Origin: Raja brachyura
Lineage: Eukaryota
DNA: 64,000 bases
Assembly (NCBI GenBank): GCA_963514005.1
Contig: OY740795.1
Location: 558,001-622,000, forward strand
Direction of reading: 5' to 3'
Part shown: piece after piece, positions 1,229-16,301 of the stretch
How the letters are laid out: every line of letters starts with the position of its first letter
How positions within the stretch are numbered: position 1 is the stretch's first letter
Notes under the pieces: model-generated
What the model was told of the DNA's origin: nothing
Database searches by the model: none
Seen by the model: the letters and a program-made list of their open reading frames with translations, nothing else
Made by a program: the position numbers and the translations under genes

Positions 1229-1620
1229 CTCAACATCTGCTGACACCGTCCGTCTCAGTCCTTCTGCCGCCGACAGAAGAGATCAACGCTCACAAGACTA
1301 TCACCCTTACCTGCTTTGTGAGAGGATTCTCCCCTCGCAGGATCTTCGTCACGTGGACAGTTGATGACAAGCGGGTGGATGGGAGCAAGTACCGGAACAC
1401 CGAGGTGGTGGCGGATAACGGCAATTACACCTTCTTCACGTACAGCCTATTATCCGTTGGGGCAGAGGAGTGGGCCAGTGGAGCCTCCTTCTCCTGCCTG
1501 GTGGGGCACGAAGCACTACCCATGAAGACCATCATCAGAACGGTCAATAAATCAAGCGGTAAACCCAGTTTTGTGAACGTTTCCCTAGTATTGATGGACA
1601 CCATCAATTCCTGTCAATGA
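1229..1620 (+). CDS. IGHM: Immunoglobulin heavy chain (IgM-type) last constant exon (C-mu4) plus secretory tail
   Basis: AG acceptor at 1227-1228 (phase 1). C1-set domain ([11 protein letters not shown]...W...[11 protein letters not shown]). Tail [20 protein letters not shown] has an NxS sequon and penultimate Cys, as in cartilaginous-fish IgM. Internal donor G|GTAAA at 1558/1559 for the membrane form. Confidence 0.9.
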
Positions 1621-10400: not shown

Positions 10401-12808
10401 GCAAATGTAACGCACGATTGAATAACCCAGGTGAAATCTTGACTTCCTTCACACCGGACTTGTCCGGCGTAACACACAGATAGACACAGATATACTTGTA
10501 ATCGAGGGTAATTTACTTAAAGCTGCGATCAAAATGAAGTCTGCTGTAGAAGCTGCATGTCATAAACAAACCAGACAATGTGCAGACATGGCACGTCAGG
10601 CAGCTTCTGCGGAGAGTTCCAGAAACGCAAACAGCGAAACTTGCCACGGCATCCTTCAAACTTGTTTTTTGTCCTTCGTGATCATGGCTGGTTTAGGTTG
10701 TATTCGTTTCATTTTTTGCGACAGTTCCCTGGATCCATTGATTCCGCCCTTTGTAAATATTTATATATGTTTGGCGAGATGCGTGGAGACCCGTTGGCTC
10801 TGCCAGAGAGCGCCAGGGAGGGAAGAGAATGGGGTTGAGAGCTGTAATATAAATCAGCCACGATTAAATCGCAGAGTAGACTTGATGTGCCGAATTGCCT
10901 AATTCTACTTCTGGCATAATGAACATGAATACTTTCACTTGTCCAGGAATTACAACTAATTTATCATGCCCCTGCATTCACGGGTTACACTCGCAGCTGC
11001 TGCTGGCTAGGTCAAGTCTTGTTTGATGTAACGCCAGCTCTCTCTGTGTTTAACCTCTTTGCACCTCGTGCAAATTACACAATTTACTTCCCACGCAGAC
11101 CTGGACACACACACAGGTTCGTGCGCGCTAGCAAATCCACGCAATGACGGTGTCGTTGACCAGTTCAACAAAGATATGCGTTGGGAAGATCTGCAGATGT
11201 TGGTTTACACCGAAGATAGACACAAAATGCTGGAGTAATGCTCCTGTCCCACTTAGGAAACCTGAACGGAAATCTCTGGAGACGCTGCGCCCCACCCAAG
11301 GTTTACGTGCGGTTCCCGGAGATTTTTGTCATTCTCCCTAATGGTCGAAAGTGGTTTCCGCTTCTTGTATAGGACGTAGAAGAAGCGGAAACAATCTTAA
11401 CAAACGTATATGTTTCAAATCAAGCCCTTAATTATCTTGTATGTTTCAATCCAAGCCATTGCCAATGATATATGTCTCCTTACTTCACTCCGCACCTGGT
11501 TATCTTCCCTAATATATTATCTTGGACTGACACAGGTTTCGATATGACACGTTATTGTCGTATCAGTTGGCAGATTTGTATTACTCTTTCGCTATTTCTG
11601 TGTTTTTGTGTTTTTGTGAATGGGGACGTTTCATTCTGTTTATATTGCTCAACTTTTCACATTGGACGTTTCGTGTCTGAATGTATTTCCTTGCATTCCC
11701 GGGACTCTGATCTTCGAAGGTACATAGCATCACATTTCCCTCCATTTCCTTTCACCTGACACCGCTCGTCTCCAAATTCAAACGGATTTCTTAAAAGCTA
11801 AAGAAGCGCTTCGCTATCTATGACTCTCCACATATTCGTCGTATTTAAACACCCTAATCTCATTTGCACCCAACCATATTTGCCTGTTTGTAACGTAATG
11901 CGTGCCAAAACGAATTTTTAAAAAACGCCGGCCCGAAACAGAAGGTGATGGAAAGAAAGAGATTAAATATTTTAAATATCCCGCAGTGTCTGAATGATTA
12001 AGTGGCTCGTATATTTTCTGTATTTTTAAGGGAGAAGCGCTGTGATATACGTTGACGCAGCCTACATTTTTCCCGAAATATAGAATAATAGAAATATAGA
12101 AATATAGCTTCAATTACACACTTGAAGTAAAAAAATATGTTGTCAAATCTCCTTAAAACACATAGATTTCCTTCGTAGGTTGGGAATCATCGGTGGAAAC
12201 AGAAATAGTTAAAATTTAATTACCAAGATTCTTGACCAGAACAGAAAAAGTAGAAAAAAACTGCAATTTTATTTTCACAGAGAAGTAGAGCTCAAGAGAT
12301 GGAATGCCAGAGGGAATCTCACCAATTGAAGTGTCCAAAGCTGACCTGGTGACACGTTGTTTATGAAGCTATCTGATTCGTGGTTAAGATATTAAACTAA
12401 AAGAGAGAAAGCAAACCTGTGGAAACGAAGTTAGCTCCAGTTCCTTTGAGTGAGTGGTTAACGAGAAGCCAATGATATCAGAGGCGGCTCCTACCAGAAC
12501 ATATTCCCTACTCACCGGACTCAATCAGAGGAATGTGGGTTAAGCATGTATGTGGCGCTTATAGACCTGAAGGAAAATCAGAACAATCATCCACCCTAGT
12601 TTATACCTAGTTTATACCTAGTTTATGGTGTGCTTACTCCATGGGCCGGAAAGTGCGTGTCTTCAGTAATTTACGGAGCCTAGACCAATGGAAACCAACC
12701 CGACTCACTGCGGTTTTGCAAGCCAACGCTGTGGCAGGTCAGCGGAGCTTTTCACGGCTGCCAGCCTCTAATTCACGTCACCGAAGTGAGTCCCCCTGAG
12801 ACTGAGCG

Positions 12809-13298
12809 ATGCGAATGCCACCGGTTTTCATCCTGGTGCCCTGCTTACATTGTGAGTACAGTTCGCACCTTAATATATAAATAATCGCATCCTTCCCGAT
12901 TTTCAGTTTTCCCAGTTTTATTTGTTCCTTCCCCGAGACGTGATTCGTTTTTGATGCACATTTCCCTCTCCATGTGGTTCATTTGCAGGGTCCTTTAGTC
13001 AGACAATGACGCAGTGCCCCTCAGCGGCGACGAGGGAGGAGTGCCAGTCTCTCACCATCAAATGCCGTTTCCAACCTGGTTCAAGGGGTGAATATACATT
13101 TCAAACTGGACGTTTCTTCAAACAAACCCAATCCGAACCAGGGCGGGAACGGATCACCAACGGGCCCCGATTCCGTACGTCGGTTAATGAAGCAGAAATG
13201 ACTTTCACGCTGGAAATTCGAGAACTGGCAGCTGGGGACAACTCCACCTATTACTGTCAAGCTGAGTACAGATGGCGTCGACAAAGAGTTATGGGGAT
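12809..13298 (+). CDS. NARTCR: NAR-TCR (IgNAR-like) V segment: leader exon 12809-12851, V exon 12989-13298, probably with a germline-joined D
   Basis: Leader MRMPPVFILVPCLH with GTGAGT donor; TTTGCAG acceptor. V-set domain SLTIKC...ERITNGPRFRTSVN...DNSTYYC with IgNAR-like CDR2 deletion and non-canonical FR1 Cys. 13 extra codons after the second Cys before the RSS. Confidence 0.88.
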
Positions 13299-13326
13299 CA
13301 CAATATAAGAGAGCAGCACATAATCT
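13299..13326 (+). other. 12-bp-spacer RSS of NAR-TCR V(D)
   Basis: CACAATA + 12 nt (TAAGAGAGCAGC) + ACATAATCT. Confidence 0.8.
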
Positions 13327-13637
13327 TCGGGCAATTAAACATCTATTTACGGGATGCGCCAACACAATGTAACACTTCTTCGTGACCCGGAGTCGAGCTG
13401 AATTCCATTGCAATCGGGAAGTTATTGTTATCTTTACTTGCCATTTGCTCCATCAATTTTCGAAGCGACCACCGCCTCAGGTACAGAAATTGCATTACCG
13501 GGGTGCTCGTCTCTTAAATGGAACAGATTGATCAACCTGCGATGGTGGAACTTGGAACATTTGGTTGTCGTCCTGAAACCACTGGAGGGATTTCACAGCC
13601 TCTGGTCATGACTGCCCGGCATATTTAGGCAGAGGGA

Positions 13638-13741
13638 GTTTCTCGTACTGAGGGGCCCTAGCGTCAGGCCACTGTGGGTTCATAATTCCGTGAAGACTTA
13701 CTATAAGGATGGGACTGGGTCTGCAGTGACTGTCACAGTCG
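13638..13741 (+). other. NAR-TCR J segment (13677-13741) with upstream 23-bp-spacer RSS
   Basis: GTTTCTCGT (13638-13646) + 23 nt + CACTGTG (13670-13676). Encodes VHNSVKTYYKDGTGSAVTVTV; donor GTAAGC at 13742 (phase 1). Confidence 0.88.
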
Positions 13742-14239
13742 GTAAGCATTCGAAAACCTCGGTTCCTACCCCTAGTTGTACCTGGGAATGTTCAGGAACA
13801 TGTAACACTGGAAACAAGGTGACAGTAATGTCATCACTGTGCAACCGGACGGTTTAATATAGCCGTTTCTGATAAAATGATCCAGAGTAAGCGTTTGCAG
13901 TCAAAACATATCTGGTTATGAGTTGGGGAATGGATTGCGGCGGACTCCGGCAGCAAACATGATATAACGATGACATAAATGATATAAACGATGACAGAGA
14001 ACGATAAATGCACAACAAAATCCTCAAAATAAATATGATTACCACAGCGATTTTGTGAAGACTGAGAAGAGTAGCAATGATCTATTAGCAGAAGGGACGG
14101 GGGGAGGGGGGCGGGGGTATCTGAGTTTCCGAGCGGACAAGGATGAGGCAAAAGGGAACAAAACCGCTGTTGAACCAGTTCACAACGCAATTAGATTGCT
14201 TTTGTAAAATGGTTTCCATTAGGGTGTGACGCGTACGAT

Positions 14240-15135
14240 AGGTTTAGTCAAGTCAAGTCAAGTCACTTTTATTTCTATAGCACATTTAAAAACCAACTCT
14301 CGTTGACCAAAGTGTTTTACATTGTTGGAGGTACTAACGTTATACAGCAGTGGTTCATAGATTAACTACATACATAAATACATACATATAGCTCAGAGGA
14401 CGTCAAGAAAGGCTTGAGATTAATGATGAGTTTTAAGTCACGACCTGAATGAGTCGAAGGAGGAGACAGTTCTGATGGGAAGAGGGATGCTGCTCCACTG
14501 TCTAGGAGCTGCAACCGCAAAGGCGCGTTCGCCCGTGAGCTTATGCCTAGACCGCGGGATGGTCAGTGACCCTCCAGTCGGCCGATCAGAGGGACCTAGA
14601 GGTGGTGTGGTTGGGAAACACACTTTTGATGTAGGTGGGGGCAAACCCGTTAAGGGCTTTTTAAACATAAATAAGGATCTTGAAATGCATTCGGAACCGC
14701 ACAGGGAGCCAGTGGAGAGGGGCCAAAATCGGGGTGATGTGGCCTTTTTTCGGGAGCCCGTCAGGTGTCTCGCTGCGACGTTTTGACCAGTTGCAGGCGG
14801 GACAGGAAATATTGGCTGATGCCAGTGTAAAGGGAGTTGCAGTATTCGAGGCGGGAGGAGACAAATGTTTGGATGATCTTTTCGAGGTCGTCAAACTTCA
14901 GGAATTGTTTTATATTACCTATCCTCTGAAGCTGGAAGAAGCTTGCTTTCACCACGGCATTGGCTTGTTTGTCATATTTCAACGCTGAGTCAAATATGAC
15001 GCCAAGTTTTTTGACTTGAGGTTCGAGTAATGGGGTAAGGCTTCCAAGGCTGCCTGCTATGGTTTGGATTGGATCTGAGGGGCCGAGAGGGATGACCTCA
15101 GACTTACTCTCGTTTAGTTGGAGGAAGTTCTGGGT
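14240..15135 (-). mobile_element. L2-type LINE 3' fragment
   Basis: Minus-strand SRLEYCNSL, HITPILAPLHWLPV, GERAFAVAAP motifs; (TTGAC)n tail. Confidence 0.8.
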
Positions 15136-15949
15136 TAGGGGGCGGTGAAGTAATCTCGTTATATTTCCGAAATGCTCGAGGGCGCTTGACTGGAAGAATG
15201 TTGATCAGTAAATGTAAAGACCAGTGGGAAAATTGCACAGACTGAATCAAACCGACAACATGCAGATTGTAGGAACATATCCTACGATGATAATGATAAA
15301 CCGCAAGTGATTAAAGCGAGATGCCCAGATCTGACAATATAAGGTGGAACGTAGAAATGAACGTGATACAAAGATAGATGCACCCCACCTAAGATAGAAA
15401 GGTTTGTAATAAGGTGGGAAACGTTTCATCTGGGTGTGCTAAATGCTGTCATAGAATAGCACTTTCCCCAGAAATATTCAATGTCGGCTTGGCTCATTCT
15501 GCGTGGTATAGTCTAATTTCACTCTCCTGTATATTCCAATGCACTGGCTGATAACCGAGACGTGGTCAATCTTTGTACGTGAGCAAAACAAATCAACATT
15601 TTACACGGTATGTTCTTCTAGAAACTTGATAATAAATTATATAATTTTCATTTATTGTTATTCTGGTCCATGATCTGAATGCAGGCTCTCTGAATGTACC
15701 CCATAGTTATTATGCGTGCTCCCAGTTCATTTTCGTAGCCATGATAAACCATGATGATAATTTAATGGTCAGTGATGTCCCATCGCTGCTCATGGTTTCA
15801 AGGATAACGAACAAAGTTCCAAGTTACCAAGGATAACGAACAAAGTTTGTGCACGTTGAGAGTTTCTCAAACCGATGCAGAGCTCAAATCGAGTGCACAA
15901 ATCTCTCCGGCAATGTATAGTAACGGAATAATGAATTTCTCTCTGACAG

Positions 15950-16301
15950 CTACAGCTTCTCTTTCCCAGTTGACCACGAGTCCGCCTCTACAGTCTTTTC
16001 CTGCTGGCAGCAACGTTACTCTTGAATGCGCATATTCTGGGTTCTGTTCGCTCACAATATATTGGTACCGGCAGTTCCCAGGATGGGCTCCACAATTCCA
16101 GCTCCTGCGACACAGTTCGGGAGAGCAGGATCAGAAACACTCTGCTGGAGAAAGAATATTCGCTTCTCTTGATCGTGGCCAAAAAAATCAGCCGGTTAAC
16201 AATCTCCAATTTACAGCTTGGCCACGCGGCTGTGTTCTTCTGTGCAATTAGGTCACGTACGGCACAGTGATACAAAATAGAGAGAAAGCCATACAAAAAC
16301 G
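15950..16301 (+). pseudogene. Leaderless NAR-TCR supporting V-delta with 23-RSS; single frameshift as assembled
   Basis: Phase-1 acceptor compatible with the NAR J donor and no leader exon seen upstream. VTLECAYSGFCSLTIYWYRQ has a CDR1 Cys. One extra A in the A7 run at 16181-16187. RSS CACAGTG (16263) + 23 + ACAAAAACG. Confidence 0.85.

What the first reader, a model, noticed from the sequence alone, without database searches (positions are those of the whole stretch)
12809..16301. NAR-TCR cassette with an apparently germline-joined V-D needing a single 12/23 join
Seen: the IgNAR-like V runs 13 codons past Cys2 (QAEYRWRRQRVMG) and ends in a 12-RSS, whereas every other V here has a 23-RSS. No free D was found in the 378 bp before a 23-RSS J. 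A precise join (AT+G) is in frame, and the J donor is phase-compatible with the leaderless V at 15950. Known: NAR-TCR is a two-V-domain TCR-delta chain of cartilaginous fish, and germline-joined segments occur in their Ig clusters. Inference: the 12-RSS is a former D 3' signal left by germline RAG activity, which fixes a long Arg-rich CDR3 half.
Basis: partly seen in the sequence, partly recalled or inferred. Interest (0 to 1): 0.72.

Follow-up and report, generated by a model that had tools for sequence, protein, structure and literature searches.

The report
Cartilaginous-fish T-cell receptor cassette lacking D
This is a gene cassette of a known shark-and-ray T-cell receptor that has lost its middle (D) piece in the inherited DNA of several related species, so it would need one cut-and-join instead of two; the extra coding tail likely comes from its own old cutting signal rather than from D, and this copy's partner gene reads broken.

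Summary
Anatomy confirmed: leader, NAR-TCR V running 41 nt past Cys2, weak 12-RSS, no D, 23-RSS J, leaderless supporting V-delta. The 311 nt behind the V align to D-J spacers of 4 of 4 unjoined paralogues (z 4.9-9.3), not to V-D spacers (z -0.3 to 1.3), so the 12-RSS is a former D 3' signal. Contigs of 3 of 4 related organisms carry the same form: inherited, not artefact. Three corrections. (1) The tail shows no D homology; its last 15 nt match paralogue V heptamer plus spacer (best 11/15, p about 0.001-0.007, post hoc). Deletion from inside the V's own RSS (~0.55) beats a RAG V-D joint (~0.3). (2) The supporting V has a +1 frameshift, absent in 4 of 4 related runs: decay or assembly error. 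(3) The in-frame precise join rests on a 1-nt J loss that relatives lack. The same genome holds clearer joins: an intact-looking D-J-joined cassette and dead V-D-joined orphans. Germline-joined NAR-TCR is labelled in a 2025 supplement, and this scan noted D-less cassettes in other genomes. Expression untested.

The parts
12809..12851 (+). Leader exon of the NAR-TCR V (14 codons + 1 nt, phase-1 donor)
   Evidence: same position as paralogue leaders
12989..13283 (+). NAR-TCR V exon proper (IgNAR-like; a-b loop Cys present, no W of WYRK; Cys2 at 13255)
   Evidence: 49-57% identity to own-genome paralogues
13284..13298 (+). 15-nt open tail; likely decayed V heptamer plus 8 spacer nt (rival: a diverged D)
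13299..13326 (+). Weak 12-RSS, former D 3' signal
   Evidence: 16-19 of 28 nt identical to paralogue D 3' RSSs; flank homology
13327..13637 (+). Spacer homologous to the D-J spacer of unjoined cassettes; holds no D
13638..13676 (-). 23-RSS of the NAR-TCR J (3 nonamer mismatches; one is not shared by relatives, position 13644)
13677..13741 (+). NAR-TCR J, phase-1 donor at 13742; one G shorter near 13691 than in organisms B and D
15950..16262 (+). Leaderless supporting V-delta with CDR1 Cys; +1 frameshift in A-run 16181-16187, stop at 16249
16263..16301 (+). 23-RSS of the supporting V-delta, co-oriented with D-delta about 480 kb downstream

Best explanation
[quoted passage not shown] Shown: the D-J-type spacer and D-type 12-RSS now follow the V; the form is shared by related organisms; the supporting V is frameshifted in this assembly and has one base fewer at that place in 4 of 4 related runs. 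Inferred: the stranded V heptamer and 8 spacer nt decayed and became a fixed tail ending R-V-M-G (paralogue V-RSSs read T-V-M-G or similar in that frame). In relatives RAG would join this tail to J, the exon would splice to a separately rearranged V-delta-D-J, and the chain would carry a half-fixed, Arg-rich CDR3, probably at low frequency because the 12-RSS is weak. This copy is more likely decayed (about 0.6) than mis-assembled.
For: Spacer aligns to D-J spacers of 4 of 4 unjoined paralogues (z 4.9, 9.1, 9.3, 9.2; 0 of 300 shuffles each) and to none of 4 V-D spacers (z 0.0, -0.3, 1.3, 0.4). The tail's last 15 nt score 47 of 75 against five paralogue V ends at the heptamer register, rank 1 of 350 registers, next best 34; p 0.0011 (random 15-mers) and 0.0015 (shuffles); gapped test p 0.007 and 0.006. 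D test negative: 2-5 of 15, p 0.71-0.80. Control behaves oppositely: the C3 orphan L008 has an exact 24+15 nt tail with 10 of 15 D identity (p 0.008) and no V-RSS likeness (p 0.31-0.34). Single contigs of organisms B, D, F (3 studies) bridge the junction with no insertion. D-delta, J-delta and J-alpha lie downstream on the same strand. Decay: changes absent from relatives at the D-x-A motif of both V exons, in the J nonamer and the frameshift.
Against: The V-RSS match was noticed by eye before it was tested, is only 15 nt long, and 10-11 of 15 matches also arise by chance elsewhere in single spacers. The 41 nt also fit V + D + 1-2 nt (24-25 + 15). True D segments of unjoined paralogues can share only 5 of 15 nt, so missing D homology is weak evidence. 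The same genome shows two RAG-like joins (L006, L007-L009), which raises the prior for RAG. The 3' break lies at or near the D heptamer, where RAG cuts. No transcript was seen. The frameshift is in a homopolymer, and two other supporting Vs of this assembly (L036, L041) have 1-nt indels at A-runs, so an assembly error is possible.
Confidence: 0.55

Rival explanations
1. One reading: RAG joined V to D in a germ cell; the tail is V end + about 2 added nt + a D that has since diverged beyond recognition.
For: Length 41 = 24-25 + 15 + 1-2. RAG-like joins exist in this genome: V-D in L007-L009 (exact 39 nt, D identity 10/15) and D-J in L006 (V-D spacer kept, z 36; D identity 10/15, p 0.03). Germ-cell RAG joining is reported for shark Ig (PMC2193156 abstract; PMC5192425 passages). 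A shared origin with L007/L008 is not rejected (p-AU 0.435).
Against: No D homology; V-RSS likeness at p about 0.001-0.007; the tail does not resemble the L008 tail (p 0.14); the trees leave the window and L007-L009 unresolved.
Confidence: 0.3
2. An aberrant RAG event in a germ cell: a cut at the D 3' signal was joined to a break inside the V signal. Same product as the best explanation, but RAG-initiated.
For: The 3' break is at or within a few nt of the D heptamer; RAG-like joins at sister cassettes.
Against: Any deletion ending inside the 15-nt D gives the same geometry; the break cannot be placed to the base.
Confidence: 0.08
3. A native V-12/23-J family that never had a D.
For: Shared by several organisms; L013/L014 are also D-less with spacers that match neither type.
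Against: The flank is a D-J spacer and the RSS is D-type; 4 of 4 unjoined paralogues have V-22/12-D-12/23-J.
Confidence: 0.04
4. Assembly artefact, or a somatic rearrangement captured in the sequenced tissue.
For: No run of the window's own sequence was found (highest word share 0.43).
Against: Contigs of three other organisms from three studies hold the same junction.
Confidence: 0.02

Closest known systems
NAR-TCR, doubly rearranging TCR-delta of cartilaginous fish (Criscitiello 2006, not held; features read in PMC1845163 passages)
   Same: Leader + IgNAR-like V with a-b loop Cys and no WYRK Trp, own J, leaderless supporting V-delta with CDR1 Cys, in the TCR-alpha/delta locus.
   Different: No D; the V faces J directly through a D-derived 12-RSS and carries a 5-codon fixed tail; supporting V frameshifted in this assembly.
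Partly germline-joined Ig clusters (VD-J, VD-DJ) of sharks and skates (PMC5192425 passages; PMC2193156 abstract)
   Same: Inherited loss of one rearrangement step in a V-D-J minicluster; one join left.
   Different: In a TCR; the junction looks more like a deletion that kept V-signal sequence than a RAG coding joint.
White shark gene labelled 'NARTCR V(gj)V(gi)V' in table S1 of PMC12227049 (supplement read whole)
   Same: A NAR-TCR marked, as I read 'gj', as germline-joined (the table also has 'IgM (gj)'; the abbreviation is not defined in what I saw).
   Different: A label only, with no description; 1 row; no partial-join or D-less form is described.
Marsupial TCR-mu V-mu-j and D-less platypus V-mu2 (PMC7615758 passages)
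   Same: Three-domain TCR with reduced rearrangement in one V domain. [quoted passage not shown]
   Different: There the supporting domain is fixed or D-less; here it is the N-terminal, presumed antigen-binding domain.

Membership tests
NAR-TCR cassette | N-terminal V related to IgNAR V, with leader | tested here: met
   Most of the 10 PDB hits are VNAR domains; leader splices in frame
NAR-TCR cassette | Cys in the a-b loop; no Trp of WYRK | tested here: met
   C18 invariant in 8 of 8 rows; motif reads RFFK; feature
NAR-TCR cassette | Leaderless supporting V-delta with CDR1 Cys downstream of the J | tested here: met
   V at 15950 with CDR1 Cys, closest to paralogue supporting Vs. A 13-codon ATG mini-exon near 15540 is not conserved and such pieces occur in 6.6% of random 600-nt pieces
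NAR-TCR cassette | In the TCR-alpha/delta locus with D-delta and J-delta in cis | tested here: met
   12-D-23 at C15:1052762, J segments at 1.055-1.067 Mb and 1.12-1.24 Mb, same strand; the C exon was not located
NAR-TCR cassette | Both V domains open | tested here: inconclusive
   Frameshift in this assembly; one base fewer in 4 of 4 related runs; no reads of this species
NAR-TCR cassette | Two independent somatic rearrangements giving a V-V-C transcript | not testable with these tools
   No RNA holder listed
RAG-made germline V-D join | V-D spacer absent, D 3' RSS and D-J spacer retained | tested here: met
RAG-made germline V-D join | D sequence retained at the V end | tested here: not met
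   2-5 of 15 nt, not significant; the test is weak because paralogous Ds can share only 5 of 15
RAG-made germline V-D join | V RSS removed cleanly at the coding end | tested here: inconclusive
   Tail resembles V heptamer + spacer, p 0.001-0.007, post hoc
RAG-made germline V-D join | Present in the germline | tested here: met
   3 of 4 laid organisms bridge the junction; the fourth has no cover there

The most novel reading that the evidence does not exclude
A lineage of cartilaginous fish keeps and expresses a one-step NAR-TCR in which a former recombination signal has been recycled into the fixed half of the antigen-binding loop. Beside it, RAG-made V-D and D-J germline joins show that TCR cassettes are repeatedly pre-assembled in germ cells, giving semi-invariant, innate-like T-cell receptors.
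Probability: 0.2. Interest if true: 0.7.

Novelty: new variant of a known kind. Interest (0 to 1): 0.42.

Why it matters
[quoted passage not shown] This genome holds NAR-TCR cassettes in unjoined, V-D-joined, D-J-joined and D-less states, which lets one compare junctions directly and test whether half-fixed NAR-TCR loops are used. It also warns that a V with a 12-RSS is not proof of a RAG V-D join. The weight is limited: the outcome mirrors known Ig clusters, a germline-joined NAR-TCR is already labelled in a supplement, this copy reads broken, and expression is unshown.

Tried and rejected
A hidden D or alternative 22/23 spacer: none. D homology of the tail: not found. One shared join with the C3 orphans: trees unresolved, neither shown nor rejected. 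Expression: no RNA holder listed, no evidence either way. Organism C (run X7) has no cover at 13229-13336, so it was not counted. Only 40 of 170 difference rows were shown, so the relatives' tail and RSS letters were not all seen. Protein searches returned no orthologue; the hits I opened (15 proteins, 13 of them named) are predicted gene models from sharks and a sawfish, several apparently reading through the V RSS, so I did not use them as evidence of joined exons. C-exon searches missed TCR C. Papers not held: Criscitiello 2006 and 2010, Ott 2021, Deiss 2019, PMC12010099; they may describe D-less cassettes. Searches (listings) and the passages I opened showed no description of partly joined or D-less NAR-TCR; one search was uninformative. 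The supplement of PMC3964593 gave 0 hits for all four terms, which may reflect unreadable text.

Full report
Observation. The window holds a leader exon (12809-12851), an IgNAR-like V (12989-13298; Cys2 at 13255), a 12-spacer RSS (13299-13326), a J with a 23-RSS (13638-13676; J 13677-13741) and a leaderless V with a 23-RSS (15950-16301). Most of the 10 PDB hits are VNAR domains. The V has the a-b loop Cys and lacks the WYRK Trp, and the second V has the CDR1 Cys; these are the NAR-TCR marks given in PMC1845163 (passages). A 12-D-23 segment and J segments lie 0.48-0.67 Mb downstream on the same strand of the same contig. The 12-RSS is weak (2 + 3 mismatches to the recalled consensus); 11 sites this good occur in the window's two strands, and no D-like signal lies in 13327-13637. 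The other 7 V exons of the window have 23-RSSs.

Paralogues. A search of the own genome gave 16 matches. Four are unjoined cassettes, V-22/12-D(15 nt)-12/23-J (L002-L005), with 24-25 nt after Cys2 and D-J distances of 376-395 nt; the window has 41 nt and 378 nt. The window's 311-nt spacer aligns to all 4 D-J spacers (z 4.9-9.3) and to none of the 4 V-D spacers (z -0.3 to 1.3). Its RSS shares 16-19 of 28 nt with the D 3' RSSs. So the V-D spacer is gone and the 12-RSS is the D's.

Germline status. Contigs from four public runs were laid on 12700-13900. In organisms B, D and F (three studies) one contig bridges the V end, RSS and spacer without insertion (4, 14 and 39 other letters over 349, 549 and 631 nt); organism C has no cover there. 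No indel in the V exon is listed for B, D or F. The form is therefore inherited and older than these species' split. Only 40 of 170 difference rows were shown, so I did not see every letter of their tails.

What the tail is. That alone is weak, since L002's D shares only 5 of 15 with the others. But the last 15 nt (13284-13298) match the V heptamer plus 8 spacer nt of the paralogues: 11 of 15 with L006, summed 47 of 75 over five paralogues, rank 1 of 350 registers, p 0.001; p 0.007 in a gapped test. I noticed this by eye first, so the p values are post hoc. Read in this frame the paralogue signals give T-V-M-G or T-A-M-G; the tail ends R-V-M-G. A control separates the two cases: orphan pseudogenes on contig C3 (L007-L009) have exactly 24+15 nt, a D-J-type spacer (L008: z 3.4-13.5) and 10 of 15 D identity (p 0.008), with no V-RSS likeness. 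I infer a deletion from inside the V signal to the D 3' heptamer (0.55), against a RAG V-D joint with an eroded D (0.3) or an aberrant RAG cut (0.08). Whether the window and the orphans share one event is unresolved.

Is it working? The supporting V has seven A's at 16181-16187, which shifts the frame to a stop at 16249, upstream of its RSS, so rearrangement cannot rescue it. All 4 runs laid (organisms A, B, D, F) have one base fewer there. The window also differs from the relatives that cover each site at the Asp of the supporting V's D-x-A motif (His here; 4 of 4), at the Ala of the NAR V's motif (Ser here; 3 of 3) and in the J nonamer (3 of 3). I read this as probable decay (about 0.6); a homopolymer error is possible, as L036 and L041 show similar indels. 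Organisms B and D also show a second, more diverged supporting-V contig with further deletions. The J of B and D, and of a relic on C3, has one more G, so the in-frame precise join is not conserved. No RNA run was listed. By established 12/23 logic, an open allele would need one join for the NAR domain and a second for V-delta, with a half-fixed CDR3; this is predicted, not shown.

Known work. Partly joined Ig clusters are known and ascribed to germ-cell RAG (PMC5192425 passages; PMC2193156 abstract). [quoted passage not shown] Searches showed no description of D-less or partly joined NAR-TCR, but the primary NAR-TCR papers were not held. Earlier notes of this scan report D-less and joined cassettes in other genomes; I did not check those.

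Verdict. A real, inherited, D-less NAR-TCR cassette; new variant of a known kind; interest 0.42. The intact-looking D-J-joined cassette L006 is the better candidate for a functional RAG-made germline join in this genome.

Noticed in passing
L006 (G000:C15:664106-664800, +) with supporting V L038 (C15:670906): NAR-TCR cassette with D and J joined in the germline: V-22-RSS, V-D spacer kept (z 36), 12-RSS, then a 68-nt D-J with an open frame and 10 of 15 D identity; V and supporting V are open.
   Followed up: partly
L007-L009 (G000:C3:128.68-128.89 Mb): Orphan NAR-TCR pseudogenes on another contig with an exact V(24)+D(15) join, degenerate 12-RSS, D-J spacer and J; L011/L012 nearby are further deleted copies.
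   Followed up: partly
L055, L056 (G000:C3:128837205, 128729324): Two 310-nt relics, 87% identical to this cassette's spacer and J start, next to the orphan cassettes; a loose end in organism B matches their flank.
   Followed up: partly
L013, L014 (G000:C15:87375, 326900): NAR-TCR pseudogenes with V-22-RSS facing a 12-RSS J and no free D; possibly D-J joined, but the spacer matches neither type.
   Followed up: partly
L036, L041, L035 (G000:C15:820064, 721743, 684633): Other supporting V-delta exons with 1-nt indels at A-runs (L036, L041) or a stop and lost Cys2 (L035).
   Followed up: no
L010, L016 (G000:C15:4.87 and 4.99 Mb): IgNAR-like V-D-D-D-J clusters with C1 exons downstream on the same contig as the TCR-alpha/delta locus.
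   Followed up: no
window 1252-1518 (G000:C15:559252) and C15:554802: C1-set exons just upstream of the cassette, probably an Ig heavy-chain cluster inside the TCR V array.
   Followed up: no
window 57690-58450: Two V exons tail to tail on opposite strands with 23-RSSs only about 40 nt apart (57998-58036 +, 58117-58079 -).
   Followed up: no
P0001, P0003, P0004, P0007 (database gene models): Predicted sawfish and shark proteins with V running into a short J-like piece and then the supporting V; could be fully joined NAR-TCR exons or prediction artefacts.
   Followed up: no
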